Origin: Eledone cirrhosa
Lineage: Eukaryota
Length of the DNA stretch: 64,000 nucleotides
Direction: 5' to 3'
Assembly: GCA_964016885.1 (NCBI GenBank)
Contig: OZ024743.1
Span: 23,498,001-23,562,000 of the forward strand
Positions 13,024 through 51,114 of this stretch are shown here, one piece after another. A model generated the notes under the pieces. The model was not told the origin of the DNA, did no database searches, and was given only the letters and a program-made list of their open reading frames with translations. A program made the translations under genes and the position numbers. The first letter of the stretch is position 1; each line of letters starts with the position of its first letter.

Positions 13024-13229
13024 ATGAATAGCACTATTGTGATCAAATTTGACAGTTTTTATTTTTGATCCATTACAGATAGTCTGATTATTTATGATGA
13101 TATATATTTTATGGACGTTGTAAAAGCTGAGAAATGTATAGTCATATACATAAGAATCAGTTGATTTTGCATAATACTTTTCATAAGGTGAGTGGGTTGT
13201 CTCATTTACTAATAACTTGGTGAAATTGA
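13024..13229 (-). CDS. Host gene coding exon (phase 1 to 0): (V)NFTKLLVNETTHSPYEKYY...NNQTICNGSKIKTVKFDHNSAIH
   Basis: Acceptor atcttctttttttgcag, donor CAT|gtaagt, 206 nt open (inside ORF 12961-13311). Sequons NFT, NET, NQT and NGS. Confidence 0.8.
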
Positions 13230-18720: not shown

Positions 18721-18789
18721 AATTTACGATTGACGTGCACTACTGGGTTGCAACTTATGTATAAAAACCAGCAGGTGTAGGATCATTCA

Positions 18790-19892: not shown

Positions 19893-19897
<5 letters not shown>

Positions 19898-20052
19898 GTA
19901 ATAATAAATGTGAAGACTAAAATCCAAAGCGGGCTCAATAAGGATAAATATATATCAAATATATAAGAACCGTAGAGCAAATATTTATTAAAATAACAGA
20001 TTAAAGTTTAAGCAAAGAATTGCTGCTTTCACTCTTAACAGGATCTTTCGAA
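19893..20052 (-). mobile_element. Solo terminal repeat of the Penelope-like element at 47962-50113, in (TA)n
   Basis: Near-identical to about 47962-48113 and flanked by TA repeats. Confidence 0.85.
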
Positions 20053-20477
20053 ATATATATATATATATATGAAACACAAATTATATTTTGAAAACAAAAC
20101 AATGCATTAGAAAGAACATTAAATCGCCAAGATAATAAAAGAATCTTACCTTAGCAAATTTACTGATCATAAAATTTGCTAAGGTAAGATTTAATGTTCT
20201 TTCTAGTGCATTGTTTGGTTTTCAAAATTTAATTTGTGTTTCTTATTCAACAATGCTTCAAGCAAACTACAAAACTCTGTTATATATATATATATGTGTG
20301 TATGTGTGTGTTTGTACGTTTGCATACTTACATTTATATATGAATATATATATATATATATATAAATATTCATATACACATCTATATATATGTGTTTACA
20401 TATTTACACACAGGCACACATGTGTGTGTGTGTGTGTGTGTGCGTGTGCTTGTGTGTATATATGTGTGTGTGTGCTC

Positions 20478-21371: not shown

Positions 21372-21380
21372 ACGGATATA

Positions 21381-21637
21381 TGTAGCGAAACCTGTACACG
21401 CCTTGAACCATGGGTGACACCTAGAAGTCAAATTCTAGGTCACCATCCTTTTCGGCGTGGACAGGTTCATGCGTGGTCGATCTCTCGAGGCGAGAGACAG
21501 AAAGCGACAGGCATATAAAGCCTGTATCATCCCACGTTTAATTGACAGAGAGATCGGAACAGTACGCTATAGACAAGCTATGTAAAGATTCACTGCTACC
21601 TACAGGCTGCAGAGGTCTACAGACAACCACAGACCAT

Positions 21638-21706
<69 letters not shown>

Positions 21707-23463
21707 GGTCTCAGACTACACCAGCCTCATGAACCAACAACAAAATAACATCGTCAACCTTCGCGACTCGTGGTAACTTGTTTATTGTTCTTTTTGACTG
21801 AAGTAAACCTTTTTATATATAAAGTAAATCAACTATTCTTGTTATTTCATCTAACAACTACCACTAATACCCTTCGTTACATTGGTGACCCAGACGCGGG
21901 AACGAACAGGTTCCTTCTAAAAAAAAAAATACGAAGTGGTATTTTAAAAAAAGAAAAACAACACGCAACCTTTCTTCTGATCATGGCTTCCATTTCCAAC
22001 TTCAACAACTTTCTCAACAGCAGCTTTCACAGCAATCTCTAATTACCAAGCTTCTCATCTATATGGTACGATATGATAAAACTTCACTTGAAATTATTCA
22101 CTAAACTTCGATTCTACGGAATATTTACAGTGACTTCGCTTTGATGTTTCGATTCATTACCAAACACTTCACCACGTCCTTATTAATCTCCAACAACAAC
22201 AACAACAGCAACAACAGACAATACTACTAGCTTCCTAGCAAGAAAACGATATCATTAAGAAGAGAAAAACTGAACTTTTTTTACAAACAATTATTTTTTA
22301 TTTTTTTTTTTTACAAACAATGTTCGAACATTTATTTCTTTTAAACTGAATATATGAACATTCATTTTCTTTTTTTTTTATTATTGTATATATGTCTGCA
22401 TACGCACATTTTTTTAAAACTGTATTACATGCCTGCATACGCACACACATTTTTTTTTGTCACACACCAACATGTTGTTGTCTATGGTATGTTCTTGATT
22501 CGGTGAGGATTTTGCGAGATCACTTTTCAACTGGTCGAGGTATGGCAACAGCTATAAAACACATGAGAAACACCCACGGGGAGTACACACCTGGACTCAC
22601 TCAGGCACGCAACTCAAAATTGCACACACTCATGTCATAGCGTAAACCTCGACTAACTGGAAAAGCATCTTACGTATGATAATACATCGAGAGAAATAGT
22701 CCTCTGTATTGTCATATCGTAATCCGATACCGCAACCCCGAACGTTCAGCCATCCATACACAACAGTTCGAAATACATGATCACAACTTTGTATAATTAC
22801 AGTTTCTTCTATATGTTACACACACATGCATACACAGTTATACGATATTTGTTTTTCTCTCTCCAAATTTCTCTGCACTCGAAATACGGGCGCAGTACCC
22901 ACATTTTGTGTGTTTTGGGATACGCTTCTGGAATCAGATTTCGCTACCCCTTTTGTAATCGATCGCTGCTCCTGCATCGATCTGGGTAGGAAACTAATGT
23001 AGCGAATTTCTGTTCATGCCTTGAACCATGGGTGACACCTAGAAGTCAAATTCTATGTCACCATCCTTTTCGGCGTGGACAGGTTCATGCGTGGGCGATC
23101 CCTCGAGGCGAGAGACAAAAAGCGACAGGTATATAAAGCCTGTATCATCCCACGTCTAACACACAGAGAGATCGGAGCATTACACTATAGCTAAGCTCTG
23201 TAAAGATTCACCGCCACCTACAGGCTGCAGAGGTCTACAAACAACGACAGACCATTACTCTCTCTCTCTCTCTCTCTCCTGGTCTCAGACTACACCAGCC
23301 TCATGAACCAACAACAAAATAACATCGTCAACCTTCGCGACTCGTGGTAACTTGTTTATTGTTCTTTTTGACTGAAGTGAAGTAAACCTTTTTATATATA
23401 AAGTAAATCAACTATTCTTGTTATTTCATCTAACAACCACCACTACTAATACCCTTCGTTACA
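21381..23463 (+). mobile_element. Non-autonomous LTR retroelement (LTRs 21381-21881 and 22998-23463; tRNA-Trp-like PBS)
   Basis: Two similar TG...CA direct repeats, each with TATAAA and (CT)n. PBS tggtgacccagacg at 21883-21896. Purine-rich gggtaggaaa before the 3' LTR. The 1.1-kb interior has no gag or pol. Confidence 0.9.
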
Positions 23464-24059
23464 CACACACATATATATATATATATATATGCACGGGTAC
23501 ATGGAAATACTCAGCTTGGTGTCCAAGCTTGCGGTTAGCCCACCAGGATTGAGAGAGCTCAGGTCTTTGGTAGGACATCATTCTAGAAAAAAGAAAAAGA
23601 CTGATATAAAACCTACGACTATATGACTCCCAAAGACGTTATCTGTTCTTCTTTTGGGATACCTGCCACCGTTGTTCAGTGAAAGGAATTGGTTCAGTGC
23701 AAGGCCTGTCTTCACGTTAAAAAGCAAGCACAAATATTACTTGACCTAAACATCTTTCATGTGTTTTGCATTGGCGTGGCTGTCTGTAGCTGAAGGTATA
23801 TATATAGAGAGAGAACCTGCTTTCAAGCATTGTGTTTTAACGTTTGCTGTAGTATCTACAAGCATAAGGATGACGTCAATTACCGTATGGATAATCTAAT
23901 CAAAGCAAATTTCTTATGTAAATTGCTGTGTTTAGGTTACGTGTGTGTATGCGTGTGGGTATGTCCTTTTATGTCAAGTATTGTGAGCTGAGTTTCATTC
24001 TGTTGTTTATTTGTGGATTGAGCCTATGTATTAGTAGTGCTCCCTTTATTTTCAAGTTA

Positions 24060-24936
24060 CCCACATTGTCGTTCTATAGAGGATTAGTGGAGGGGATGAG
24101 CGACGACGTCCTTGGCGAGACTCTGGGCGTCGATGAAAATCAACTAGCCAACCTCTTCGGGAGAACTTTTGGGCCGCGGGGCCGATGGACAACTTCCAGA
24201 AATCCCTGGCCTGGCAGTGCTACCGAGGGGCTTTGCCAGTTCGGGATAAACTCTACAGGCATGGAAGTGCCGTCAGCCGGACCTGTCCTGCACGCACTCG
24301 TCCAGTGTCCGAGCATTGCTGACTTGCGGGTTTATGTCGAACACCTGCTGTCGCGTGTAGGACAGATCCGGCTATCAGCTGAGTCCATTGTGAGGATTGC
24401 CCCGCCCTCTTCCTTTAGCCGGGTAGGGCAGGCAGTTTTTATTTGTCTGGTGGCCATGGCGAAAGAGATAGTGTGGTGGACGCGTTTGAAAGGGCTGAAG
24501 ACGAGCACTTAACTCTTCCGTGATGTCCTGATTAACTTTTTCAAATTTCATTTGAAAAGGAAAATCAGGGTAGAGAGGGAAGTGCTCTCTTCCCAACATT
24601 TTGTTGAAAGATGGGTGAGAGATAGCCCGAGTGAATAGGCCTGCTCTGAGTATGCGCCTGTAAATTGAAGGTGGAAAACTGGGAGAGGCCACTTGCTCTG
24701 GTGGTCAGGGTCACTGTAGCTTTTTTAACGGGATTTCTCCACGAATGTCCCTCGGAAGTCTCCCCACTATTGGGGAATTTTTTCATTGTTTCTTTTTTTG
24801 TTACATCCTCTGTTTTTTTGTTTTTTTTACACGCAGAGATGTCCATTTGTACCGTCCTGTATTGTCCTGTATTGTCCTTAACGTTTTACTTTGTGTAAAC
24901 CCTTGTGGTTAATAAAGAAGGGATTATTATTATTAT
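24060..24936 (+). mobile_element. L1/Tx1-like LINE copy A, 5'-truncated
   Basis: Closely matches about 40375-41250, with an internal deletion in the zinc finger. Ends aataaagaa-(att)n. Confidence 0.92.
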
Positions 24937-24968
24937 AATTCTTATTTTCTTTCATTATTGTTTCTGAG

Positions 24969-25153
24969 GCGGTGGATTGGCAATATTGGTAGAGTGTCGG
25001 ATGCCATGCTTTGGCGCATAGAGCTACGGCCCTTGCCATTCTGAGTTCAAATCCCGCCGAGGTTAACTTTGCCTTTCATCCTTACGTGGTCGATAAAATA
25101 AAGTACCAGTAATACACTGGGTAATTGCTGGCCTTGTGCCTAACGTAGAAACA
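24969..25153 (+). mobile_element. SINE family 1, full length, with 15-bp TSD
   Basis: TSD attattgtttctgag at 24954-24968 and 25154-25168. B box gagttcaaatcc. Confidence 0.92.
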
Positions 25154-25299
25154 ATTATTGTTTCTGAGATATATGCCGAGTGTCTTCCTGACACCTAGGG
25201 TTAATAAATTCACAGTGTGCATTGGTAAGCCAGTTAATACAGCACATTGATTATAATTTTAAAAAATAACAGTATACATATATACACATGTGCATATGC

Positions 25300-28200
25300 A
25301 TATGTAAATACAAGGAGGGGTATCCATCTTACAGAGATAGTGCTCTTCTCAATACGTGTGCAGTACCAGTCAAAACAATTTTTTGCACCTCGTGCAGAGA
25401 CGGTAAACCAGGAATCATTCGCAAATACTGTTCTGTTCCTTTCTTGATCATTCCAAGTCCTCCCACAATCACTGGTATTGTAACGGCCTTGAGGCGCCAC
25501 ATTTTCTCAATTTCAATAACCAGATCTTTATATTTTCGTAGCTTGTCAAACTCTTTTGCCGCGATATTGTGATCACATGGGATGCTCATATCTATCATTA
25601 AACAAGCCTTGTTATGTTGATCTTTTACAATAATGTCAGGTCTATTTGTTTTTATGGTCCTGTCAGTATGTACAGGAAAGTCCCAGAGAATTGTTACTTT
25701 TTCTCCTTCAGTTACAGCCTCAGCGTGATGATTGTACCACTTCTCTTCAGCTTTGATTTTCTAATGCCGAGATATTACCCAGTGTAGATATTGGCCAACT
25801 CTGTCATGTCTATATTTGTATTCTACTTTAAATCCAGAGACTAAGTGATCCACTGTTTCAACCTCAGCATTGCAGAATCGGCACTTTGGGTTTATTCCGT
25901 TTCTCATCACATTGGCCTGGTAATTACGAGTCAATAAGCTTTGATCTTGGGCAGCTAAGATGAAGCCTTCACTCTCCGCCTTTAGCCCTGAACTACGTAG
26001 CCACTGATGGGTGTGCTTTTGGTCAACATCAGCTTGTTTGCTACGGGCCACATATTTGCCATGCAGAGGTTTCTGCTCCCACTTTGATGCTAATTGTCCT
26101 TGCCCTTTTGCTTTTGCCAGTGATTTTATGTGCCTAGCAGCATCAGTTGCAACGGTTTCTTTAGTCTGTCCAGCCTGGGTATCAAGCATGAGATCAGTAG
26201 CATATTTTTTGCTCTCCTTCAAGATAGAATGAAGCTTCTTACTTCTCTCATGCTTTTCAACAAGTTTCAGCATACAGTCGTTAGTTGTTTCAAGGTATTT
26301 GGCCAGTCCAATGATGGTGATCTTGTAAGCAAGTTCAAACGGGATCAAGCCACGGCCTCCTTGAGTTCTAGGAAGGTAAAGACGATCCACATCTGCTTTT
26401 GGGTGGTTCATCCTATTACAGGTCAGTAGCTTACGGACTTTGGTGTCGATTCTTTTGATTTCACTCATATTCCAGTTCAACACACTGAAGCTATAAGTGA
26501 CAACTGGGACTGCCAAGGAATTTATGGCTAGCACCTTATTACGAGCGTTTAGTTCTGATCTCAGAACTGCACGTACGGTCTTGTAACATTCTTTCCGTAT
26601 GCTCTCTTTCATACTTGCATGCTGAATGCCAGAGCCCTCATTAATCCCTAAGTATTTATAGGTTTGTTCCTGCTCAAGTTCCTTTATGATTATTTCAGCA
26701 TCCAATTCAACTGAGACTGAGTTGACAAGCTTCCCCTTCTTGAAAGTGGCTTTTGCACACTTGTCAAGTCCAAACTCCATCCTGATGTCATCACTAAATG
26801 TTTTTACTGTCCGCAAAAGGCCTTCCAGTTCGTCATTATCTTTGCAATATAGCTTCAAATCATCCATATAAAATAGGTGACTTATTTTTTTGTTGTCAAT
26901 TCTATAACCGTACCCTGTTCTATTAAGTTCGGATGTAAGGGGTATTAAAGCTATGCAGAAAAGCAAGGGTGAAAGTGAGTCACCCTGGAATATACCACAG
27001 TTCATCTTTATATTCCTAGAGCACAGTACCCCAGTGGAATGAGACAATTGGAAATTTGTGTTCCATAATGATATATTGTGTTTCAGGAAGTTTGAGATCA
27101 CAGGTGAGATTTTGTAGATGTCCAGTGATCTCAGAATCCATGAGTGTGGTATGCTGTCAAGGGCTTTTTTTTATAATCGATCCATGCAAAACTGAGATTT
27201 CTGTGTTTATTATGACAGTTCTCAAGGATCATACGATTAATCAAAAGTTGATCTTTGCCTCGTCGGCACCCTTTTTGTTCAATGGGGAAAAGATTGTTCT
27301 CCTCCAAAAACACGTATGCTTTTTCCATGAGAATAGAGGTTAATAGTTTATAAGTGGTGGACAAGCAGGTTATGGGCCAATAGTTTTTTGGATCTTTGGT
27401 TTCGTTGTTCTTTGGTAGAAGGTAGGTAATGCCACTTGCTATCCAATCAGGTGTATTTTTGGATCTTTCATAATTCCATTAAACAGCTTGACCAATATAT
27501 TGTGAGTGCACGGGAGTGAGGAAAGCCAGAAATTTGGCACCCTGTCTCTACCAGGAGATTTTCATTTATGAGATTTATTGAGTGCTGTCCTTAAGTCTGC
27601 TATATAGATGTCTTCCCACGCCTGTTCTTCTAAATTTGTGTAGGATGTTTCCAGGCGACTAACCCAATCTACATTAGCATTATATGTCTTCTCATCACTC
27701 CAAATCTTACTCCAGAAGTTTTCAACTTCTTTTATGGACGGGGGGGGGGGGGGGGGTGTCTTCAATCATTATTTTTTTCTTCCCTACTTCTCTATAAAAT
27801 AACTCGGCATTGGATGAGAACAACTTATTTTGCCTGTAGAAGTTGTTTCGCTTCTCGAATCTACGAATTCGTTGGGCTTTTACTTTAACTTTTTGTTTCA
27901 GAGATTATTTTGTTGAAACTATTGCTTCTCTAGAAGACAGTCCATATTTTCTCTTTAGCTTTCTTACCTTCTTGGCTCTATATACCATTTCCAGCGGTTA
28001 ACTCACTCAATAAATATATTTCTCCTCTCATTACGTCAACCTCCTTTTCGATTCTACTCCTCCAAACTGGTTTACCTCGAAGGTTCGACTTTTTTTGTTT
28101 TTTTTGGTGGTAAACAACTTGTTTCAATTACTCTAGCAGATGCATAAATGATTTCATTTAACTCAGCAAGATCAGGTTCTAGTTCTATGACTTCTTTTGT

Positions 28201-28965
28201 CACAGGATTACCAATCATTATTTGTTTTCTATTTTGGATTGTATTTGGGAGTTTTTGAAGTGGTTCTCTACCATTTATACTAGAATGTCTTACTACTGCA
28301 AGCTCATTCAGTATTTTTTGCTTTAATTCCTTCATAGTCTCCCTGTGTTCTTCAGCAGATGTTTGGTTTTCAATTACTGTTTCTAAGTCCCTCTCCTGGC
28401 TATTATGAGCGGGTTCAATAGGGCTTCTCATTTCTACAAATCTATTTGTGATTTGGTCAGATGGAGGTCTTTCAGTAAAGACTTCTGCCTGGTTACTATC
28501 TCCAGGAGATTCTTCAGTTCTTTCATCATTTATATTTATGTCATTCTCCACAGCCTGCTTGATCGCAGTTAGTTGAGTGTCTGTGAGTCTATTATTTCGG
28601 AAGATATACCTCCTTACTTTAGCCAACTTATTTCCATCCATATCACGTCTGCTAGCTTGATTCAGAGTTTTCCAGATTTTGTAGGAGTTTAAAGTGTGTC
28701 TGTCTGGTGATGGCTTACCTAATGCATAGTAATATGCATATATTACTTCTTTATACTCTTCTCGGGTCCATTTCATCCTTTTAGGTTTTAATTTTTGAGG
28801 TGGTTTGGGTGGTGGATCTGGAGGGCTCGAGTTGGGGCAATCCCCAATCAAGTGACCATCCAGGTCCATAATTGGAGAAGAGTTTGTGCCAGAGGAGGAC
28901 TTTTCGATCTCAGGTTGACACCTTCCTGGGGAAGGCGCTTCCTGATTAACCATAGGAAAAGCGAT
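25300..28965 (-). mobile_element. Near full-length R4/Dong-like (RLE) non-LTR retrotransposon, frameshifted
   Basis: N-terminal RMKWTREEYKEV. RT motifs EQKGCRR, AWIDYKK, GIFQGDSLSPLLF and LFYMDD. CCHC region CRFC..ETVDH. RLE motifs RHDRV, RPDI, IDMSIP and KLRKYKDL. Confidence 0.93.
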
Positions 28966-29044
28966 TTGCTATTGTGTATTAATTTTTATTTGTTCATCTC
29001 GCAGTACATGCTTGCGTTACGCATGGTATTGGACGTACATTATT

Positions 29045-30677
29045 GTCCAGATACTTGGCACCGCTCTCAAGGAATACGAAGCGGTGACAAGAGCAAAGAT
29101 AAACCAGGAAAAGTCGGTGGGCTTGCAGCTCGGCACCTGGAGAGGCAAGTCCATGCCGTCCGACAGCGTTGTGGGGCGTTGGACGGAGGACCGGTTAAAT
29201 TGCTCGGGGTCTGGTTCGGACCGCACTTCCAGATAGAGAAAAACTGGAACGCGATGACGAGCAGGGTGGCCTCCCTCACCCATAAATGGGCCGAGAGGAA
29301 GATGTCCCTGAAAGGCCGGGCGGAGGTGGCGAATGCGTACATCGCATCCGTCATCTGCTACCGCCTCACCGTCGTCCCTTGCTCCAGCCAAACTCTCACC
29401 AAAATGGAGCGCCTCCTCTTCCGCCTTTTGTGGAAGGGACGCGCTCCCATGGTCAGACGATCCATCTGCTGTCAACACCCGTTGCGTGGAGGACTGGGCA
29501 TGCCATGGCTGATAATGCGCAAACATGCGCTGAGGCTGCGACATCTCTGGTGCTTCCTTGATGGTGAACGGGTGTGGTCGCCGTTCGCCAGGCACGTTTT
29601 CCCACAGCTTGTCTCCTTGACGGAGCTGCAGTCCTGGGTCAGAAAAAGACCGAGGGATAGCGCTTGGAAACTGGAATGTCTCCAGGCGCTCACTGCCCTC
29701 TGCCAGCTGGGTACCAGTATCGGTGGAACATCCACCTCGGCGTTCTATAGAGGACTAGTGGAGGGGAAGAGCGACGACGTTCTCGGAGAGATCCTGGGCG
29801 TCGAAGAAGATCAGCTGTTTGCTCTCTTCCGCGGAACATTCAGCCCAGGGCCTATGGATAACTTCCAAAAATCCCTGGCCTGGCAGTGCTACCGGGGAGC
29901 GCTGCCGGTTCGAGATAAGCTCTACAGGCACGGAAGTGCCGTCAGCCGAGCCTGTCCGAGATGCGCGCAGAGCGACGAAACCGTCGTGCACGCACTCGTT
30001 CAGTGCCCGAGCATTGCTGACTTGTGGAGCTATGTCGAACAGTTGCTGTCGCGTGTAGGACTGATCCGGTTATCGACTGAGTCCATTGTGCAGATGGTCT
30101 CGCCGTCTTCCTTCGAGGAGGAAGGGCAGGCGGTTTTCATCTGCCTGGTGGCCATGGCGAAAGAGATTGTGTGGTGGACAAGGTTGAAAGGGTTAAAGAC
30201 AGACACTTTCTTCTTCGGCGAATCCCTAATTAACTTTTTCAAGTTTCACTTGAAGAGGAAAATCAGGGTGGAGAGGCAAGTGCTGCTTTCTAGCAAGTTT
30301 GTTGAAAGGTGGGTGAATGTAGCGAGAATGGTCCGAGTGAACGGGACCACTCTGAATATACGTCTGTAGTTTGAGAAATGGAAAAATTGAGAGAGGGCGC
30401 TTGTCCTGGTGGTCAGGGTGGCCGTAGTCTGTTGTGTGGTTTTCGCCACGAGTAACCCTCGGAGGTTTCCCCCTATTGGGGAATTTTTCATTGTTTCAAT
30501 TTTCATTTTTGTTTATATATATGTTTCTGTCTTTTTTTTCTTTTCTTTTATAAATAATAAAAATAGTTACACGCACAAAACCCACATCGTACCGTCCTGT
30601 ACCGTCCTGTGCCGTCTATAATGTTGTTCTTGATGTCAGCCCTTGTGGCCAATAAAGAAATCATTATTATTATTATT
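29045..30677 (+). mobile_element. L1/Tx1-like LINE copy C, 5'-truncated
   Basis: RT C-terminus (INQEKS, KLLGVWF, LSLKGR-like MSLKGR, GGLGMP) and zf-RVT CPRC..ETVVHALVQC. Ends aataaagaaatc-(att)n. Confidence 0.93.
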
Positions 30678-31097
30678 GTTCTTTGAGTCTCAGTCATTGA
30701 TGTTAGTTAACTGGAAAGTTTGTTGAAATGAATATCAAGCCACTACCTGCAGCCTCAGATATTCAGGACGTATCGGAGGGTTCTTGCTGTTCCCAGCTAG
30801 CATGCCTTTTGAAGCGTTCCAAAAAGCGTGGCGGGGCCAATTTTCTTTAACCATCCCTGGAAACTTTTTGAGATAGTACCTAGTGCGCCTATGACAATCG
30901 GGACCACTTTGACTTCATGGCAGTTCCAAATCCTTTTTACCTCCTACTTTAAGTCCTGGTATCGGTTAATTTTCTCCCTAACCTTCTCTTGCACTCTCGT
31001 GTCGAATGGGCAGGCCACATCCACAATCAGGCACGATCTTATTTCCTTGTCCAAAACCACCAGGTCAGGTCTATTGTGTTCCAGTTTCTTTTCCGTC
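30678..31097 (-). mobile_element. R4/Dong-like 3' fragment D (RLE domain and 3' UTR, (AAT)n tail)
   Basis: Near-identical to 34065-34480. NRPDLVV, IVDVACPFD and INRYQDL motifs. Confidence 0.9.
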
Positions 31098-31286
31098 TGG
31101 CAGTATCGGTAGAGGGTCGGACGCCATGCTTTCCAGCATAGTTATGTCCCTTTACGATCTGAGTTCAAATCCCGCCGAGGTTGACTTTGCCTTTCATCCT
31201 TACGGGGTCGATAAAATAAAGTACCAGTAATGCACTGGGTAATTGCTGGCCTTGTGCCTAAAGTAGAAACAATTATTATTATTATT
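31098..31286 (+). mobile_element. SINE family 1, slightly 5'-truncated, with (ATT)n tail
   Basis: Matches 986-1172. Confidence 0.9.
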
Positions 31287-31287
31287 G

Positions 31288-34063
31288 TTGGTGAAGCCAC
31301 GCTTCTTATCGCCTCCAGTTTTTTTCAACGTTTTACCTCGTTTTCAACCGTTCTAAACCTTTTATTCAAGTTTTAAATTTGATAAAAGTTTAGAAGAAGT
31401 GACCCACCGAATACAGGGGTTCACTCGTAAATAATACGGCACCCCTTTACGGGGTGTCGTATTCGTATTTGTGTAAAAATATATTTTGAAAAAATTTCAA
31501 CATGGATAACACAAGAAAGAGAGAGAGCGCTGTCACACTACACAGAGAGAGGGAGACTTTATCAGCATGTCAACAAGACAGCGTTCCAGCGGAGGTAAAT
31601 ATAAACGAAAATATTACAAAGGAAAAGAAGATTGTTACAGATTTAAAATTAACAAATATTTCTAACACAAACAACACCAACAATAACACCAACAACAACA
31701 CCAACAACAACACCATCAATAACAACAGCAACAACAAAAATAACAGCGGTAAAGTCGAGAACGACAATAACAAAAATAACAGCGGTAAGGTCGAGAACGA
31801 CAATAACAACAGCCACAACAACAATAATAGTAGGAACAGTATCAACAAAAACAACAATAATAACAACAGCCACAATAACAGTAACAACAGCAACAGTATC
31901 AACGAAAACAACAACAACACCAACAACTGTACCAACGAAAACAACAACAATGACATCGATACCTGTAATAGCGACCTCAGTAAGACCAGTAGCGGCAGCA
32001 ATAGTGGTGCTGCTGAAAAAGGGACCACTTCTTTTGCAGGTGTCGCCCGAAATATCGAGACAGTGTTAGTCACAGAGGAGGAGATGGCAGTCGCAAGGGC
32101 CATGGTGACAAGAAGCGCCAATAGAGTCTCCTTGAAACCTCCACCCGATTTTTTCAAGGACCAGCAGCTATGGACGGTGACTTACCGCACCGTAAGCAAA
32201 ATCTCACATCGGGTGGAGAGAGCCACGGAGGCTCAAATCCAAAAGGCCTTCGAGCGCGTCTGGGCACGCAAAACCCACATCACCCGAGGCAGAAAGTACG
32301 CCACAGTAGACGTACTTTTCGCCACCCCCCAGAAAGCAAAGTCTCACTCTTTGGTAACCCTAAAGAGTGAGGAGATAGTCTTGGTGCCCTCCTACTGCGG
32401 GCAGAAGATTGTGAGGGTCAAAGTGTCCCAGGTCCTACCCGACGTGCCCATACCTTGGCTGGCCGCGTCTGTCCTTGCTGGAATAGAGAACAGGACGACC
32501 ATGCTGCAAGTAGAAAAAATAGGGAGAGAGAACTGGTCAGGTATAGGCATGCAAATGCTTATACAAACTGACCAGGAATGTATCGACTCCAACTCCCTAT
32601 AAGTGTAGAAGGAAGACGGCCAAAATGTTATCTCTGTGGGTCGAAGGGTCACCTCAGGGCCTTTTTCCCGCAGAAGACAGCAAAGAATAAGGCCCCTCTC
32701 CTTCCAATACCTGGTCCGCTGCTACCAAGAGCAGGGCAAACAACAAACGAAGAAGCCCCTTCCACGGTGAGTAGGAGGGCAACGTCTGTAGCAACCGTAC
32801 CAAGGCCACGGACAACTAAAGCAGCATCATCAGTGGCGGCAACACCAATAGCTACATTTGAAGTAGCTACACCAGCAACAAAATTGTCGAAGAGGGCTCC
32901 ACTACCACCACCAACATCCGTGGAGCACATACCCCTCCCAGACGCCACAGAATCCAACATGGAGTTTGAGGCGGGAGTGAAGTGGCAAACGGTCTGCCAC
33001 AAAAAAAAACAAAAAAGAAAAACCCCTTAGATTCACCCTCCAAAAGCGAAGGCATACAAAGAGGGGTAAAGGCGGCAAGGAAACTTGCAGCAACACCACC
33101 ACCATCACCACCACAAGCACCACTGACAACAACAACCACACCACCACCAGCATCACCAAAAACACCAACAACGCAAACACAAGACACACATACCAAACAG
33201 CAACAAGAAGAAAACAGCAACAAAATCACCCCTCCCCCCAAAAAGTACACAGCCATAAACATGGCAAAAAAAGAACTCATACAATATATAAAGCAGCACA
33301 CAGACATCACAGAAAAAAACTACTACACCCCACTAACACCAAGAACTCTCCCGACAAACATAAGCATCATCGAAATCTCAATAGAACAGTACAAATCTTT
33401 AAAACAAAAATTCCCCAACGCAGTTGGAGACTTCAGAGGGTCGGTTACCAAGAGGATATACACTGACATCCTCTTGGAAACACCCATGACCAGCGAAAGG
33501 GATGGTTCTACTGTCCCTTCACCACACGATCAAGGTAAGTGACCCTTTCTCACTTGCCCCGTTTCTCATCCAACATGGCCGTACTCAGAATAGGCAGTAT
33601 AAATGCACGTGGCCTGGGGTCATCTTGGAAGCAGGGTCACCTGCTCAACGACCTCAGGTCACTAAACATAGATGTGGTGGCCATCAGTGAGACCAGAATC
33701 TCCGAAGCACAAGCCTTCGCACCGATCTTCGGCGGCTACGATGTATATGCATCTCCCAGCCGTCCAGGATCGGGGGGGGAGGAGTTGCCGTCCTTTTTCG
33801 GAGTGGCTTGGATCTCGCGATACGGGCCATCTTCCTAGACCTAGAAGGTAAGTCGGTGGTGCTGGACGTGACCGGCAGCGAAGGAAATGCTTTCAGGCTA
33901 GTAGCCGTCTACGCCCCAACAGGGGCAGGACGGCCAGATTTCTTCAGACGTCTAGAGACCTTTCTTGGAACATCCCGCTCTTTAGTGTTAGTGGGCGACT
34001 GGAACGGTATCTTGGATGCACGCTGGGATTGTGTGAGGCTACTGGATAGGGGAGGAGGGTGCA
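31288..34063 (+). mobile_element. L1/Tx1-like LINE copy E: 5' UTR, ORF1 (31502-33542, frameshifted) and start of ORF2 (APE domain from ATG 33575), 3'-deleted
   Basis: ORF1 is homologous to copy G, with an RRM-like region and zinc knuckle CYLCGSKGH. ORF2 has LRIGSINARGL, ISETR, VAVYAP and LVGDWN. Confidence 0.92.
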
Positions 34064-35335
34064 ATGAGTCTCAGTCATTGATGTTAGTTAACTGGAAAGT
34101 TTGTTGAAATGAATATCAAGCCACTACCTGCAACCTCAGATATTCAGGACGTATCGGAGGGTTCTTGCTGTTCCCAGAAAGCATGCCTTTTGAAGCGTTC
34201 CAAAAAGCGTGAAGGGGCCAATTTTCTTTAACCATCCCTGGAAACTTTTTGAGATAGTCACTAGTGCGCCTATGACAATCGGGATCACTTTGACTTCATG
34301 GCAGTTCCAAATCCTTTTTACCTCCCACTTTAAGTCCTGGTATCGGTTAATTTTCTCCCTCTCCTTCTCTTGCACTCTCGTGTCGAATGGGCAGGCCACA
34401 TCCACAATCAGGCACGATCTTTTTTCTTTGTCCACAACCACCAGGTCAGGTCTATTGTGTTCCAGTTTCTTGTCCGTCTGTATCCTAAAATCCCACAGCA
34501 CCTTCACCTGATCGTTTTCTATCACTGCCTCTGGCTTATGCTCATACCACTTCTCAGAATGTGGTAAATTGTTTACTTTGCATAGGTGCCAGTGGATCAC
34601 CCTGCCCATCACATCATGTCTCCAGCCCTTATAGTGAGTCTGGGCTAAGTGTTTACACTCGGATACAATGTGAGCCACAGTCTCCTCTCTCTCTCTCCAC
34701 AGATCCTGCACAGTGGGCTAGCCTCCTCCTTGTAAATATGGTGTTTCAACCACTTCGTTTTGAGGGCCTGCTCCTGCGCAGCCATTAACATTCCTTCTGT
34801 AGCCTTTTTAAGGTCTCCTCTTCTCAACCAGTTCCATGTCTGTGGATCTCTAAATTCAGTTTTCTCAAAGAAGGTACTATGAAGGGATTTTTCCTGAAGG
34901 CTGCTCTTTCTCCTTGATGTTATTTCCTCCTTGGACATCCCCTGGCCTATTGTCTCCTCCTTCAGTACAGTTCTGAGCATTGGCTCCTTACTATCAGTCA
35001 CGTATTTGTGTAGGTTGTTTTTCTCCATCTGAACACAGTCCTCTATGCTGATAAGACCTCTTCCACCTTCAGATCTCCTTAAGTAGAGTCTATCGACATC
35101 ACTCCTCTTGTGGAACATGTTGTAGATAGTCAATAGCTTCCTAGTCTTCCTATCCATTTCTTTTTGTTCAGCAACATTCCATCTCAGAATTCCCGCACTG
35201 TACCTAATAATAGACACAGCTCGGGAATTTACTGCACTTATGGCATTCCTACTGTTCAGATGTGACTTTAATACGCTCCTTACTCCCCGAATGTATTCAG
35301 TTCTTATCAATTCCTTCATTTTTTTGTTCTTGATG

Positions 35336-35337
<2 letters not shown>
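34064..35337 (-). mobile_element. R4/Dong-like 5'-truncated element F
   Basis: RLYLRRSEGGRGL, AAQEQAL, CRIC..ETVAHIVSEC, RHD, NRPD, DVACPFD and KINRYQDL. Its 5' end abuts an (ATT)n tract. Confidence 0.93.
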
Positions 35338-35374
<37 letters not shown>

Positions 35375-35578
35375 GGCGACCTACGTAGTAAATCGTATCA
35401 TCGTGTGCTCCGCAAAGGTTTGTTATTTCCGTTTGTTAAAAATTATCATTTATGGAAAATTTTATTAACTGTTTATAAGCGCACATACATTGTTTTCCGA
35501 AAAGGACACCCAAAAAGATTGGGGCCTTGTGCCCAAAATTTAAACTTTTATTATTATCAAAAAATTTCTTTGAAAAAA

Positions 35579-37556
35579 ATGGCTAATTCACCTCTGCACC
35601 AAGCAGCTGAAAGCCTTCCTCACAAATTAACACCTCACACCGACACCACCATTGTAAATGTTACTACGTTTGCCAACACAAAAAAAAAATATAAGCAGTA
35701 GCAATATTTTAAATTTGTCTCAGGCAGACATTCATTTCCCGCCATTACCAATGACTGCAGGTGTTAAAGCCTCCACCACCACCACCACCGCGACAACAGA
35801 AACAAAAGAAGAAAAAAATAAATTAACTCGTGATGTCGAAATGAAATCAAGCAAAATGGACTCTTCCCCACCAAAGACGACTGACGTCACCACCACCACA
35901 ACTGAAACTAAAATTAATATTAACACAAATAACGATAGCAACAACAACAACAATGACATTATAAAAACGACCCTCAGTTTTGCAATAGTAGCAAAACAGT
36001 TCGAAGCATTTACGGTAACTCAGGAGGATTTAGAAAATGCCAAACAAATGGTAAAGAAAGATGGGTACAGGGACAGCCTCCCCCCCCCCCCCCACACCTA
36101 ATGAAATGGAGCATCGGCGCCTATGCACCGTGTCGTATCGAACGATAAATGTAAAATCGCGCCGAGTGGAACGGGCATCCGAGTCCCAAATCCAAAAAGC
36201 TTTGGGACATGTGTGGGCAAGAAAAACCCACATCAGACGTGGGCAGAAGTATGGAACCGTGGACGTGTTCTTTGAAACACCAGAGGAGGCTAGAGAACAC
36301 TCCATGGCCCCATTAAGAAGTGACGACTTCACACTCGTCCCAAGCTATTGTGGCCAGAGACTCGTAAAGATCAGGGTGACCCACGTTCCACCGGCCATCG
36401 AAATTCCCTGGCTAATAGCGGCCGTCCTCGCCGGCATCGAAGCCAACACAAAAATAATAGCAATAGCAAAAGAAAAGCAGGAGAACTGGTCCGGATCTGG
36501 GATGGAGCTCCTGATCCAAGCGGACCAAAAAAGCATTGAGGATATCCCAGAGGTAATAGACCTCACTGACGGCAGCCACCTCACGGTAATTGTCGAGGGC
36601 AGAAGACCTAGGTGTGTCGTTTGTGGTGAAGGAACCCACCTAAGGGCTTTCTGCCCTCAGGCTAAAAGGTTGAGGCCACCTCTCCTACCCACCCCAGTGA
36701 CACAACCATCAACACCACCAGTAGCAGAGATGGCAGCAACAACTGTAGCAGCAACAACAGAAGCAACTATAACAGCAACAACCCCAGCAACAGTAGCAAA
36801 ACCAACACCACCACCACCACCACCAGCAAAACCAACACCACCACCACCCAACGCTTCAGAACTAGCACCAGCGCCTACACCATCCACCACGCCACAACCA
36901 AAACTAACGCCTGTGGAGGATTTTCCACTCCCCGGCCTATCACAACTGGAGACAGATTGTGACGACGAGGAGTGGGAAACGATATCCGGAAAAAAAAAAA
37001 GAAACCAAAAAAGAAAAAATTCTCTTCCTTCCCCTCCAAAAACAAAATACAGAGGGAAACAAATAAACTAAGAAACAAAAAAGTTAGGACAGATATGCCA
37101 CCATCCACACCAGCATCACCAACCCCATCAACCCAAACACCAACACCATCACCATCATTAACTCCAACACCACCATCACCTACACCACAAAAGTCACCAA
37201 AATGCGAAACAGAAACAAATCCACAACAAACGCAAACAAAACAAAACAACCAAAACGATACACACTACACAGCATTAAATTTGAACAACAAGCAATTATT
37301 ACACTACATCCAACACAACACCAGCATCACAGAAAAAGACTACACAACAACCCCAAAATTCACACCACCTCCACACATACAAATCACTCGCATCACACAG
37401 AAAACGTACATGACACTAAAACAAAAATTCCCCAAAGACATCGGAGACTTCCGACAAGCACTCTCCAGGAGGATTTATAAGGACATCCTTCCTGAGGAGG
37501 CCACAAGCAGTGAAAAGGATGGAAAAACCGTCCTTCCCCTACGAGAAGTAAGGTAA
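35579..37556 (+). pseudogene. Tx1-like ORF1 (RRM-like region, CCHC knuckle, P/T-rich linker, C-terminal domain), broken by frameshifts
   Basis: CVVCGEGTHLRAFC knuckle. Segments 35658-36101, 36061-37071 and 36972-37556 each align with ORF1 of copy E. Confidence 0.8.
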
Positions 37557-37590
37557 GTGGTCTTTCCCATCTTTTCCACTCCTTTTCAAC

Positions 37591-40500
37591 ATGACCTCAC
37601 TCAGAATAGGCAGCATAAATGCGCGTGGCTTGGGGTCGTCATGGAAGCAGGGCCACCTGCTCAACGACCTCAGGTCACTAAACATAGATGTAGTGGCCAT
37701 CAGCGAGACCAGAATCTCCGAAGCACAGGCTTTCGCACCGATCTTCGGCGGCTACGATGTGTACGCATCTCCCAGCCGTCCGGGATCGGGGGAGGAGTTG
37801 CTGTGCTTTTTCGGAAAGGTTTGGATCTTGCCATACGGGCCATCTTCCTGAACCCAGAAGGTAAGTTGGTGGTGCTGGACGTGACCAGCGGAGACGGGCA
37901 AGCTTTCAGGTTAGTGGCCGTCTATGCCCCGACAGGAGCAGGGCGGCCTGATTTCTTCCGGCGTCTGGAGACCTTTCTTGGAACGTCCCGCTCTTTAGTG
38001 TTAGTGGGCGACTGGAACGGGATCTTAGATGCACGCTGGGATTGTGTGGGATTAGTGGATATGGAAGGAGGGTGCAAGAGTCTCACCAACCTGCTCAGAC
38101 GTTTTGAACTGTCTGACAGGTACCGAATGGATTTCCCGAATGTACCAATGTGGACTTGGACAAATCGCATAGGGTCATCCAGATCATATCTAGATAGAGT
38201 ATTTTGTAGGGAAATAGATAGGTCTAGCATAGGCTGTCCACAATTCAAGATAGTCAGCTACACGGACCACAAATTCGTGATCTGTGTGCTTGACTTAGAT
38301 AGGCTTCATAGGCGAGGACCCGGCTACTGGAAGCTAAACGCGTCCTTACCAGCGCGCAAGGCCTACAGAGACCGGATTAGCGAACTAGTTAAGCGGGCGT
38401 TGATGGGGGCCATCGTCAACAACAAGTGGTGGTTTGCTCTGAAAAGAGCAATTAGAATAGAGTCCATTAGGTTTAGTAAGACTTTAGCAATAGAGAAAAA
38501 TAGAGCAGAGGGAGAACTAGTTAGAAAATTAGATGAGGCGCTTAGCAAAGGCATCGCGACCGACGTACTTGCGGCGAAATTGGCCCTTGACCAATTCTTC
38601 AATGCAAAGCACGAAGGCTGCGTTGTCAGAGCTAGGGTGCGTGCTCTCAGACACGAGGGGACGAAAGCCGTTCAATGGGCCCGAGTGGCGGAGGCGCGTC
38701 GTGGCAACAAAGCCACGATCCGGTTTATGGTGGACCACGACGGGCACATGCTACTCGATCCCGGGCAAATGTGTGAAACTTTTCAGCGACACTTCGCTCA
38801 ACTGTTCGGGGGCAGTGGCGAGCCGGATCGAGGGATGGACTTTAGTGTCTACCTCGACGGACTGCCGCGGCTTTCGGCCACTGAGGCGGAGTGTTGCGAA
38901 AAGCCGATAACAACCGCTGAAGTACGGGATGCAATGACTAGTTGCACAAGGGGTAAATCGCCTGGTTTGGATGGTCTGCCCTATGAACTTTACGTACAAA
39001 TGCCAAACTTGTTCGGAGGCCTCTTGGCGGACGTCTACTGCAACTGGCAACAGAACGGGAGAATTCCCAGCTCTGTGAGCCGAGGAGCGGTGGCGCTGCT
39101 GAGAAAGGATCCGAACAAGGGGGATAACATAGATAATTTTAGGCCCATAACTCTGCTAAACACAGAGTTCAAGATTTTGGCCAAGGTGCTAGCAAAGAGG
39201 TTGGCGCTTGTCGTTGGTGGTCTGGTGGGAGAGGCACAGACATGCGCCATTCCCGACAGATCCATCCACGACAATTTCCACCTCATACGATACATCGTAG
39301 AGAGGGTAGCTAGGGAACCTGGCACGGGTGGGTCTTTGATCAATTTAGATCAGTCGAAAGCCTTCGATAGGATCGACCATCGTTACCTAGAGGCAGTCCT
39401 GAGGGCGGCTGGCTTTGGGCCCGTCTTCAGAGGCTGGATCGCTGCCATGCACAGCAACATCTGCTCTGTAGTGAGAGTGAACGGTCACCTTTCGGAACCG
39501 TTCAACATCATGCGCTCGGTCCGCCAAGGATGTCCCCTCTCGTCCCTATTGTACGTATTGACTCTCGAGCCATTACTGCACAAACTGGAGACGTTGAGGG
39601 GGATCCCGCGCGAACTAGGATGCGGAAGATCCGTGTCAGCATATGCCGACGATGTCACCGTAGTGGTGTCGAACGCCAAACACATCGAGGCGATCGGCAC
39701 TACACTAAGAGAATACGAAGCGGTGACAGGAGCAATGATCAACCAGGAAAAGTCAGTGGGCCTGCAGCTCAGCACCTGGAGAGGCAGGTCCATGCCGTCC
39801 AACAGCGTCGTCGGGCGCTGGACAGACGGACCGGTTAAATTGCTAGTGGTCTGGTTCGGTCCAGACCTCCAGACGGACAAAAACTGGGACGAGGTGACGA
39901 GCAGGGTGGCTTCTCTCACCCAGAAATGGGCCGAGAGGAAGCTATCCCTGAAAGGTCGAGCGGAGGTGGCTAACGCGTACATCGCGTCTGTCATCTACTA
40001 CCGCCTGACCGTCGTACCTTGTCCTAAGCCCCGCCTGACTGCGCTGGAGCGTTTGCTCTTTCGCTTCTTGTGGAGGGGACGCGCTCCGATGGTCAGGCGG
40101 TCCATCTGCTGTCAACACCCGCTACGTGGAGGGCTGGGCATGCCGTGGCTGATGATGCGCAGACACGCGCTCAGGCTACGACATCTCCACCTCTTCCTCG
40201 ACGGTGATCAGGTGTGGTCGCCGTTTGCTAGACACGTTTTTCCCCAGCTCGTCTCCTTGACGGAGCTGCAGTCCTGGGTCAAGCGAAGACCGAGAGGGAG
40301 CGCTTGGAGACTGGAATGTCTTCAGGCGCTCACAGCCCTCGACCAATCGGGCAATGTGATCGGTGGAAACTCCACCTTGGCGTTCTATAGGGGATTAGTG
40401 GAAGGGAAGAGCGACGACGTACTTGGAGAAACTCTAGGCGTCGACGAAAATCAACTAGCCAATCTCTTCGGAAGGACTTTCGGGCCGGGGCCTATGGACA

Positions 40501-41009
40501 GCTTCCAGAAATCCCTGGCCTGGCAGTGCTACCAGGGTGCTTTGCCAGTTCGGGATAAACTTTACAGGCATGGAGGTGCCGTCAGCCGGGCATGTCCGAG
40601 ATGCGCACAGGGCGACGAAACCGTCCTGCACGCACTTGTCCAGTGTCCGAGCATTGCTGACTTGTGGGTTTATGTCGAACACCTGCTGTCACGTGTAGGA
40701 CGGATCTAGCTATCAGCTGAGTCCATCGTGAGGATTGCCCCGCCCTCTTCCTTTAGCCGGGAAGGGCAGGCAGTTTTTATCTGTCTGGTGGCCATGGCGA
40801 AAGAGATAGTATGGTGGATACGTTTGAAAGGGCTGAAGACGAGCACTTACCTCTTCGGTGATGCCCTGATTAACTTTTTCAAATTTCATCTGAAAAGGAA
40901 AATCAGGGTAGAGAGGGAAGTGCTCTCTTCCCAGCATTTTGTTGAAAGATGGGTGAGAGAAGCAAGTATGGCCCGAATGAATGGGCCTTCTCTGAGTATG
41001 TGTCTGTAA
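37591..41009 (+). pseudogene. Tx1-like ORF2 (APE endonuclease, RT, zf-RVT), with one frameshift near 37790 and one in-frame stop at 40707-40709
   Basis: SINARG, GDWN, SYLD and TDH (APE). KSPGLDG, FRPITLLN, DQSKAFD, VRQGCPLS and AYADD (RT). CPRC..H..C zinc finger. Confidence 0.93.
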
Positions 41010-41758
41010 ATTAAAGGTGGAAAATTGGGAGAGGGCACTTGCCCTGGTGGTCAGGGCCACTGTGGTCTTTTAATAGGCTTTCTCCACAAATGTCCCTCGG
41101 AAGTCTCCCCCCTATTGGGGAATTTTTCTTTGTTATTTTATTTCATCCTCTGTTTTTTTTACACGCAGAAATGCCCATTCGTACCGTCCTGTATTGTCCT
41201 GTACTGTCCTTAATGTCTACTTTATGTAAACCCTTGTGGTTAATAAAGAAAACATTATTATTATTATTATTATTATTATCATTATTATTATTATTATTAT
41301 TAAGTATCTCGAAACGTGGCACAGATCAGCGGATTAAGTTTATTTTTGTTTACGTGCTTCTAAAACATTTTTGACAGAACATTTCATATTGTTTTCTGGC
41401 CTAAACCAACCATCTTCCGCGGCAGCTGGTTGGTTTCCCTCATTAAGAGCTAAATCTGTGTTTTCTTTTTCACAAACACGCTCCTCAATTTAAAAAAAAA
41501 AAGACATGATGGACAAGAAAAATTCGTTTTGACACCATTAGTTGACAATTCAATCCATCCTTAGTGGGGAACTTGCGCGAACAAAGCCACGGACGTTGAA
41601 GTTGTCTGCCCCCTCCGGCTTTCTTCTTTCTTTTTCAAAATTGTGTTTTGGAGAACCTTGCTGACGAGGACGAGGCATGAGGCTACCGACAAAAAAAACG
41701 CCGGCAAAGCCAGGGAGATCGGGGACCGGAGGCCAATGAATATATTATATATTATATA

Positions 41759-44214: not shown

Positions 44215-46893
<2,679 letters not shown>

Positions 46894-50408: not shown

Positions 50409-50460
50409 CTGCATTAATATGTGTTGCTATAAAAAGCAACCATAGAATACATTTCTCCAT
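50409..50460 (-). CDS. Host gene first coding exon, a signal peptide: MEKCILWLLFIATHINA (phase 1 end)
   Basis: ATG in an aagATGG context, a hydrophobic core ending I-N-A, and a consensus donor CAG|gtaaga. Phase matches exon 13024-13229. Confidence 0.7.
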
Positions 50461-51114
50461 CTTGTCCTCTCCTTGAAACAAACTCTTTTACACCTGATTA
50501 TTGACTGCACAGTAAATATGTGTCTTTCATGGATACCTGAGCTGTTGTGCAGTGTTTATATAATTGTCAGGCATTTAAGCAAAACACTGTTTTCTCTATA
50601 CATTGATCCATGAAATATTATGAATAATATACTAAATATCGGTTCCTTCATCTTCTTCGGTATATATTGTCATTGTCTTAATTCATCAACATAATAACAT
50701 TGATTTTTATTTAAGACAACAAGCTGTAACTAGTTTAAACTTATCTTTTAATGATTGATATGTGTTTTTTGAAGATAGCTGTTGATGTTAAAGTCCAAGA
50801 TAGTCTTGTTGAACAGACTTATGATTAAATGTATTCCAGCGATGGATATCTTCCTTTTACTTGTCCCGGGCATACTGTATCTAAGATAACATTATCCAAC
50901 GTATCATGCATCCAATGATGTAGACCAGTTCTACTTTTTGGGTAAATGCATTCGATGTTCAGAGACTGGGATTGGCCCCGTGCAAAGCCTTTCCTCACTG
51001 TGTTGTTATTCTCAGAAGAATAACAACACAACCAGGAGCTGAACATATCGATGTATGGACGGAGTAAAACACACTTCAACAACATGTGTACCTGTCTTTC
51101 CTACACCAGTTCGG

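What the first reader, a model, noticed from the sequence alone, without database searches (positions are those of the whole stretch)
24060..41301. 17-kb array of opposite-strand Tx1 and Dong/R4 elements sharing the same (ATT/AAT)n landing pads
Seen: four L1/Tx1-like copies, all on +, alternate with three R4/Dong-like elements, all on -, plus two SINEs. Most junctions are (ATT)n tracts (24923, 30663, 31273, 35338, 41253). Tx1 copy C and Dong D sit tail to tail on one shared (ATT)n. Dong F and Tx1 G sit head to head on another. Known: Dong targets (TAA)n, and some Tx1 families target microsatellites. Inference: an APE-type and an RLE-type element and a SINE each regenerate the triplet target the others use, giving a self-amplifying, strand-polarised hotspot inside a host intron.
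Basis: partly seen in the sequence, partly recalled or inferred. Interest (0 to 1): 0.7.

Follow-up and report, generated by a model that had tools for sequence, protein, structure and literature searches.

The report
Two LINE kinds share ATT repeats
In this probably octopus genome, two unrelated kinds of jumping gene sit in the same ATT repeats, almost always facing opposite ways, and stack into mixed piles like this 17-kb one on several chromosomes, likely because their enzymes cut opposite strands of the repeat and each landing leaves a usable repeat on both sides.

Summary
The array is real: four Tx1-like LINE pieces (+) alternate with three Dong/R4-like pieces (-) and two SINEs at 24,059-41,302. 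Copies are 74-86% alike (Tx1) or from two distant Dong families, so it is not a tandem duplication. Three of ten junctions lack ATT, and one of these is unconfirmed by reads. It is not a special locus: the genome holds about 21,700 Tx1-type and 10,700 Dong tail motifs; 30 of 30 full-length Tx1-G copies start on (ATT)n; 94 of 94 classified neighbours across a tract obey the polarity; 487 of 2,972 Tx1-G tails face a Dong tail (0.5 expected at random places, but only about 13% expected from shared use of long tracts). Seven more such arrays were mapped on C1. Best reading: shared-target accretion, each enzyme likely nicking its own strand and each insertion leaving two tracts. The SINE has a relaxed ATTAT target and adds only a short duplication; the host intron is unproven. 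Known parts: Dong in (TAA)n, Tx1 in other microsatellites, antiparallel TRAS/SART at telomeres. Not found in print: an (ATT)n Tx1 and APE/RLE co-targeting. This scan noted the same system many times elsewhere in this genome.

The parts
24059..24922 (+). A: 5'-truncated Tx1-like LINE (end of ORF2 and 3' UTR), no ATT at its left end
   Evidence: 86% to G 3' end; left junction bridged by a unique 623-nt contig in three runs of one sample
24923..24959 (.). (ATT)4 plus degenerate ATT-like stretch between tail of A and tail of B
   Evidence: sequence
24954..25168 (+). SINE1 (24969-25153) with a 15-bp target duplication (24954-24968 and 25154-25168) that includes the last 9 bases of B, so it landed on B's tail after B
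25160..29038 (-). B: full-length but frameshifted Dong/R4-like element (N-terminal domain without zinc fingers, RT, CCHC, PD..D-type nuclease), AATAAT at both ends on its sense strand
29039..29044 (.). ATTATT, head-to-head junction of B and C
29045..30662 (+). C: 5'-truncated Tx1-like LINE of another subfamily (82% to G)
30663..30677 (.). (ATT)5 shared tail-to-tail by C and D
30678..31099 (-). D: 3' piece of the young, abundant Dong family (96% to F)
31098..31271 (+). SINE2, first bases missing, fused to the 5' break of D without ATT or duplication
31272..31286 (.). (ATT)5 between SINE2 and the head of E
31287..34064 (+). E: 5' half of a Tx1-like LINE (5' UTR, broken ORF1, start of the APE domain)
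   Evidence: the same head follows a G tail at another locus
34065..35337 (-). F: 5'-truncated Dong, tail lost; joined to E through an 8-base microhomology (34066-34073)
   Evidence: junction not bridged by listed reads
35338..35374 (.). (ATT)12 shared head-to-head by F and G
35375..41253 (+). G: full-length Tx1-like LINE (ORF1 with a CCHC-type knuckle; ORF2 APE, RT, zf-RVT), with frameshifts and a premature stop
41254..41302 (.). ~(ATT)16 tail of G, open to further insertion
50409..50493 (-). candidate host exon (17-codon signal-peptide-like start, GTAAG donor); unconfirmed
   Evidence: seen by eye, printed
13024..13229 (-). candidate next host exon, phase-compatible with the one above; no convincing homologue; unconfirmed

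Best explanation
The array is one of very many mixed stacks in this genome in which Tx1-like (APE) and Dong/R4-like (RLE) LINEs lie in the same (ATT/AAT)n tracts on opposite strands, likely built by repeated independent insertions in which each enzyme nicks its own strand of the tract. Shown: both ends of full-length Tx1-G copies and most 5' breaks of Dong copies abut the tract, with Tx1 sense on the ATT strand and Dong sense on the AAT strand. Inferred from target-primed reverse transcription: Tx1 would nick the (AAT)n strand and prime on an RNA end reading AUU, Dong would nick the (ATT)n strand and prime on an RNA end reading AAU; this fixes the polarity. Inferred: each insertion splits one tract into two and duplicates a few units, so an array with n elements offers about n+1 targets and grows faster than a bare tract; both orders of insertion occur, Dong onto Tx1 tails more often. 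The alternation in this window is then largely chance within that rule. The SINE likely borrows a Tx1-type enzyme with a looser ATTAT target and is a passenger. Secondary deletions (E|F, D|SINE2) likely trimmed the stack.
For: Tails: 30 of 30 best-matching G 3' ends run into ATT; heads: 30 of 30 best-matching G 5' ends are preceded by (ATT)n in the same phase. Dong 5' breaks: 60 of 86 abut 3 or more AAT units. Polarity: 94 of 94 classified neighbours of 134 tract sides examined; 64 of 70 neighbouring motifs within 15 kb concordant, against 11 of 22 at 15-100 kb; 81 of 87 annotated tract sides in seven chosen clusters plus the window. Clustering: 70 of 148 gaps at most 15 kb, against a mean of 11.8 and a maximum of 24 in 2,000 uniform draws. 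Counts: 21,684 and 10,687 tail motifs; 487 of 2,972 G tails face a Dong tail, 0.5 expected at random places. 13 of 21 tracts of 20 nt or more in 790 kb of evenly spaced sample abut these elements (counted by eye). Both G-flanking tracts are as long as background long tracts. Raw reads of another study show (ATT)n directly against the Dong 3' end (25,251 reads). Both age orders seen among facing pairs.
Against: No empty site was seen, so net gain of ATT per insertion is not measured; long flanking tracts could reflect choice of the longest targets. Only 12 of 32 apparent 5' breaks of Tx1-G abut 3 or more ATT units (many misses look like internal deletions or alignment breaks, judged by eye). 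Three of ten junctions in the window lack ATT. The youngest G copies face Dong more often (13 of 29; 9 of 17 by exact motif) than even the upper null share of 21.7% allows (p about 0.005 each), which two-way insertion may or may not explain. Age ranks are crude (nearest-neighbour distances; Tx1 values inflated by subfamily diversity). Strand choice of the nucleases is untested.
Confidence: 0.8

Rival explanations
1. Beyond the shared tract, the young Tx1-G and Dong families prefer each other's ends (recognition of the tract-element boundary, or local chromatin left by the other), so alternation is selected or directed.
For: 13 of 29 and 9 of 17 young G tails face a Dong D/F tail against a 13% (at most 22%) null; G tails meet a Tx1 head in only 1 of 29 and 1 of 17 cases; ages of facing partners correlate (Spearman 0.43, p 0.0025, 46 pairs).
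Against: Over the whole G subfamily the share is 16.4%, inside the null range; Dong-Dong (8) and Tx1-Tx1 (3) junctions are common in the clusters beside Tx1-Dong (8) and Dong-Tx1 (4); tail tracts are longer than head tracts, which alone biases the counts (inference).
Confidence: 0.13
2. The elements insert loosely; the ATT tracts are only tails made by slippage, and the stacks arise from passive accumulation, recombination or segmental duplication in tolerant regions.
For: The SINE behaves this way (dispersed, ATTAT target); some arrays contain duplicated units (L013/L014, L138); E|F and D|SINE2 look like deletion joints.
Against: Tails cannot explain (ATT)n at the 5' side of 30 of 30 full-length Tx1-G and of 60 of 86 Dong breaks at many different positions, nor the strand rule that fades beyond 15 kb; copies in the window are not duplicates.
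Confidence: 0.04
3. The array is a mis-assembly across long repeats.
For: Contigs of short words could not bridge the interior; E|F had no depth on its E side at 99% likeness.
Against: Each copy has its own divergence and break point; hundreds of equivalent junctions with different tract lengths exist; reads of another study show the Dong-(ATT)n boundary. A single joint (E|F) could still be an assembly error.
Confidence: 0.03

Closest known systems
Dong (R4 clade; B. mori Dong, DongAg, DongBg, Darwinula Dong1/2) - PMC3812793, PMC7998251, passages read
   Same: Single ORF with RT and restriction-like nuclease, N-terminal domain without zinc fingers, insertion into (TAA)n; stated to hold for most insects, molluscs and cnidarians.
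   Different: Here at least two distant families, over 10,000 copies of one, sharing the tracts with an APE element; the D/F family has a 1.4-kb leader whose start resembles Tx1 5' UTRs.
Microsatellite-specific Tx1 families: Kibi (TC)n, Koshi (TTC)n, crocodilian (TTCC)n/(TTTC)n - PMC4494074, passages read; its figure 3 and supplement not seen
   Same: Two ORFs, APE-RT-CCHC ORF2, strict microsatellite flanks, T-rich repeat on the side named (sense, by inference).
   Different: Target (ATT)n was not found in the passages or searches; thousands of copies; target shared with an RLE element; sister families here end in (TATC)n or (TA)n.
TRAS and SART in (TTAGG)n telomeric repeats of Bombyx mori - PMC10088271, passages read
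   Same: Two families insert into one simple repeat in opposite orientations and form mixed arrays.
   Different: TRAS and SART are both R1-clade APE elements confined to telomeres, where telomerase supplies the target; here the two have unrelated nucleases and the arrays are interstitial and genome-wide.
Tandem stacks by repeated insertion at a duplicated target (R1 tandems, SINEU-3 tandems) - PMC5932611, PMC4494074, passages read
   Same: Target duplication keeps the site usable and yields arrays.
   Different: Those are one family head-to-tail; here two clades, two strands.
L1-Tx1 and Dong-R4 LINEs of Octopus vulgaris and other coleoids - PMC13282606, PMC8967140, passages read
   Same: Same two LINE groups, listed as recently active and abundant; TE hotspots reported.
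   Different: The passages read give no target sequence, polarity or co-insertion.

Membership tests
Tx1 clade (L1 group) | ORF2 with N-terminal APE, RT and C-terminal zinc-binding motif | tested here: met
   Pfam Exo_endo_phos, RVT_1, zf-RVT on G; best solved match human L1 ORF2p, E 1e-47, against R2 at 6e-21
Tx1 clade (L1 group) | Separate ORF1 upstream | tested here: met
   Frameshifted ORF1 with a C-x2-C-x4-H-x4-C motif in G and E, read from the translation; no Pfam family passes
Tx1 clade (L1 group) | RT phylogeny inside Tx1 rather than L1 proper | not testable with these tools
   No named Tx1 protein among hits or cluster members; nearest named hit is an unnamed-function Argonauta protein, 70%. 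The label Tx1 rests on architecture, target specificity and recall
Tx1 clade (L1 group) | Target-sequence preference (over 20% of flanks of one type, criterion of PMC4494074) | tested here: met
   30 of 30 heads and 30 of 30 tails on (ATT)n
R4/Dong clade | Single ORF, RT followed by CCHC and PD..D restriction-like nuclease, no APE | tested here: met
   Translations of B, D, F and of a full-length D/F-family copy; only R2 proteins match a close relative in the PDB
R4/Dong clade | N-terminal diverged Myb/SANT-like domain without zinc fingers (PMC7998251) | tested here: inconclusive
   B's N-terminus aligns to a Pediculus RT protein, E 1e-18, a species used in that paper's alignment (same accession not checked); no zinc finger seen; Myb fold itself not tested
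R4/Dong clade | (TAA)n target | tested here: met
   60 of 86 5' breaks and the tails abut (AAT)n
R4/Dong clade | RT phylogeny with named R4/Dong references | not testable with these tools
   No named reference among hits
SINE mobilised by Tx1 | 3' end shared with the partner LINE | tested here: inconclusive
   Last 40 bases align to C-type tail (1 of 2,000 shuffles reach the score), to two other Tx1-type tails (5 and 18 of 2,000), not to G, A, a fourth Tx1 tail or either Dong tail; eight comparisons
SINE mobilised by Tx1 | Same strand and start of target as the partner | tested here: met
   55 of 64 3' flanks begin ATTAT; 24 of 42 near-full-length copies have a duplication of 10 nt or more
TRAS/SART-type telomeric arrays | R1-clade APE elements in telomeric repeats at chromosome ends | tested here: not met
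   Interstitial (ATT)n, one partner is RLE-type; works alike, not a member

The most novel reading that the evidence does not exclude
An APE LINE and an RLE LINE form a mutual niche: each makes and prefers the other's ends, Dong took a Tx1 leader by living next to it, and together they create most long ATT tracts and thousands of self-growing polarised arrays that account for part of octopus TE hotspots and genome size.
Probability: 0.2. Interest if true: 0.65.

Novelty: new variant of a known kind. Interest (0 to 1): 0.4.

Why it matters
It gives a concrete, testable cause for retrotransposon clusters in a 3-Gb cephalopod-like genome: target sharing between two unrelated nuclease types. It adds a target, (ATT)n, to the short list for Tx1, with sister families on other repeats, which is a natural series for asking how APE specificity changes. 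It also warns that (AAT)n markers in such genomes sit on mobile-element ends. Every component habit is already known, so the surprise is moderate.

Tried and rejected
Tandem duplication: rejected. Read support for the interior: contigs of three runs of one sample (possibly the source) and reduced-representation reads were swamped by other copies; the E|F test gave no bridging record; a hole proves nothing. No RNA holder listed, so nothing on expression or on the host gene. Host gene: exon scan gave nine candidates, one phase-compatible with an exon seen by eye; its 68 residues found no Pfam family, four weak multi-stretch hits that look compositional and no paralogue. Named Tx1 or Dong references: none. 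Target duplication of Tx1-G: hidden inside the tract; in one copy a variant unit next to the head was not repeated at the tail (L066), so its length is unknown. ARAGORN found no tRNA in the SINEs. The tail counter was faulty and was redone. The 17-base Tx1 motif also catches sister families with other tails (5 of 30), so 21,684 overstates the ATT-targeting copies. Three of 20 fetched G tails were not found and were dropped; one sample stretch did not exist. Supplement of PMC4494074 not available.
Full report
1. What is in the window. Self-comparison, ORFs, Pfam and the sequence confirm nine pieces between about 24,059 and 41,302: Tx1-like A, C, E, G on +; Dong-like B, D, F on -; two SINEs on +. 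G has APE, RT and zf-RVT domains and matches human L1 ORF2p best among solved structures; B, D and F carry RT, CCHC and a PD..D-type nuclease region. Five junctions have 4 or more ATT units, two have ATTATT, three have none. SINE1's 15-base duplication contains the last nine bases of B, which orders it after B. E|F is an 8-base microhomology joint found once in the genome. Tx1 copies are 74-86% alike and B does not match D/F at the nucleotide level, so the array is not a tandem duplication. The closest named protein hits for G are from Argonauta, which points to an octopod; this is an inference.

2. Genome-wide flanks. The window lies on contig C4 of a 3.0-Gb assembly. Of the 30 best-matching G 3' ends fetched (40 scored of 681 candidates; the window's own included) all run into ATT; of the 30 best-matching G 5' ends (40 scored of 1,291) all are preceded by (ATT)n in one phase. 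Among 5' breaks inside the fetched loci, 60 of 86 Dong breaks abut 3 or more AAT units, but only 12 of 32 apparent Tx1-G breaks abut 3 or more ATT units; many misses look like internal deletions or alignment breaks, judged by eye. Pattern counts: 21,684 Tx1-type tail motifs (5 of the first 30 belong to sister families ending in TATC or TA repeats or unique sequence), 10,687 Dong D/F tail motifs, 592 joined within 8-38 bases, 2,972 G-subfamily tails of which 487 face a Dong tail within 92 bases.

3. Polarity and clustering. In the first 27 Mb of C1 (100 Tx1 and 49 Dong motifs), neighbours were concordant in 17 of 17 pairs within 150 bases, 47 of 53 within 15 kb, 11 of 22 at 15-100 kb and 34 of 56 beyond; 70 of 148 gaps were 15 kb or less against 11.8 expected. 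Across five sets of loci, 134 tract sides were examined, 94 could be classified, and all 94 were Tx1 +, SINE + or Dong - (the sets overlap in a few loci and include a likely segmental duplicate). Seven clusters on C1, chosen because they held several motifs, show the same architecture, one of about 28 kb, including runs of three full-length Tx1 head-to-tail and runs of Dong; there 81 of 87 annotated tract sides were concordant.

4. How much is more than shared targeting? Random placement predicts 0.5 facing pairs against 487. The fairer null uses long tracts: 79 evenly spaced 10-kb stretches held 21 tracts of 20 nt or more, about 80,000 genome-wide (49,000-122,000), so about 13% (9-22%) should have a Dong D/F tail on one side. 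The observed 16.4% fits. The youngest G copies exceed it (13 of 29; 9 of 17 by exact motif; p about 0.005 against the upper bound). Insertion in both orders would raise the share; this is inference. Of the 21 long tracts, 13 abut these elements (by eye; five come from one locally duplicated stretch). Relative ages of facing partners (nearest-neighbour distances, 63 of 88 raw pairs kept after removing duplicates and short pieces): in 46 unselected pairs Dong was younger by over one point in 30, Tx1 in 2, equal in 14; in 11 pairs picked for young Tx1, Tx1 was younger in 7 and Dong in 1. Both orders likely occur; the measure is crude.

5. Is the target renewed? For 20 other full-length G copies with both ends in hand (17 of 20 fetched plus three from earlier loci) the left and right tracts have medians 40.5 and 41 nt, not different from background long tracts (median 33, p 0.22), and their sum is 81.5. 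So one insertion leaves two usable tracts. Net synthesis is not shown, since no empty site was seen. The SINE shows what the duplication looks like outside tracts: 24 of 42 near-full-length copies have a direct repeat of 10 nt or more, 55 of 64 3' flanks begin ATTAT, and only 5 of 64 have 4 or more units. It is very abundant (about 200,000 by a motif count in the sample) and dispersed. Its 3' end resembles some Tx1-type tails and neither Dong tail, modest evidence that Tx1 enzymes move it.

6. Mechanism. Shown: target, strand rule, clustering, two tracts per insertion. From established target-primed reverse transcription (own knowledge): the 3' end of the element joins the nicked strand, so a sense-strand (ATT)n tail implies a first nick on the (AAT)n strand and the reverse for Dong. 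Inferred: splitting and duplicating tracts makes arrays grow in proportion to their size; decay of old tracts limits this, consistent with the age correlation of partners (Spearman 0.43). Confidence 0.8.

7. Assembly and host gene. A unique contig bridges the left edge of A in three runs of one sample, possibly the source. The interior could not be bridged, and E|F showed no depth on its E side; inconclusive. Raw reads of a second study show (ATT)n against the Dong 3' end in 25,251 reads, which supports the association but not this locus. Two phase-compatible exon candidates on - (50409-50493, 13024-13229) would put the array in a 37-kb intron, but no homologue supports them.

8. Literature. 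Passages only were read: PMC3812793 (Dong in TAA; Kibi, Koshi), PMC4494074 (Tx1 targets; figure 3 and supplement not seen, and they may list further repeat units), PMC4640811, PMC13282606 and PMC8967140 (octopus Dong-R4 and L1-Tx1), PMC10088271 (TRAS/SART antiparallel), PMC7998251 (Dong domain and target), PMC5932611 (double insertion), PMC4758252. Ten searches listed no paper on an (ATT)n-specific Tx1 or on APE/RLE sharing of one microsatellite; Repbase and Kojima and Fujiwara 2004 were not searchable or read. Earlier notes of this scan describe the same system at many other places of this genome (272 notes fit 'Dong Tx1'); they are not independent evidence. One gave a lead that I tested: the first 300 bases of a full-length D/F-family Dong align to Tx1 5' ends (0 of 500 shuffles reach the score for G, E and one other head, 3 of 500 for a fourth), while B's leader does not.

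9. Verdict. Real and genome-wide; a new variant of known habits. Interest 0.4.

Noticed in passing
L096, L100, L105, L110, L112: Tx1-type 3' ends with the same 17-base motif but (TATC)n, (TA)n or unique flanks: sister families seem to use other microsatellites.
   Followed up: no
L199-L200 (G000:C1:11275639-11280546): A full-length D/F-family Dong has a 1.4-kb leader whose start aligns to Tx1 5' UTRs; B in the window has a short leader without this likeness.
   Followed up: partly
L121, L017, L128; window 19895-20053 and 47963-48114; L162, L182: Two other repeat families carry an internal ATT run, and Tx1, Dong or SINE copies sit on it at some loci: they may seed new arrays.
   Followed up: no
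L138, L119, L292, L148: At least two further Dong-type families with different 3' ends occupy the same tracts in the same orientation.
   Followed up: partly
L076, L103/L104, L023: Short duplicated Tx1 3' ends separated by ATT units (very short truncated copies stacked on tails).
   Followed up: no
L209-L210 (G000:C1:24834700-24838000): A Tx1 copy broken into alternating + and - pieces, one of the few breaks of the strand rule.
   Followed up: no
window 11081-12302: 29-bp minisatellite, 42 copies, 96% matches.
   Followed up: no
window 21380-21881 and 22997-23463: Two 85% identical direct repeats ending near a primer-site-like motif, 0.6 kb left of the array; look like LTRs around a short interior.
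   Followed up: no
window 45094-47300, 17521-18721, 53400-55840, 57300-58495, 6496-7950: Penelope-like and RTE-like RT remnants outside the array, without ATT tracts; one starts on a long (AT)n run (family names recalled).
   Followed up: no
window 50409-50493 and 13024-13229 (-): Phase-compatible exon candidates for a secreted protein with several N-x-S/T sites; no homologue found.
   Followed up: partly
window 20067-20246, 44254-44574, 57104-57281, 3996-4231: Palindromic elements with long inverted arms.
   Followed up: no
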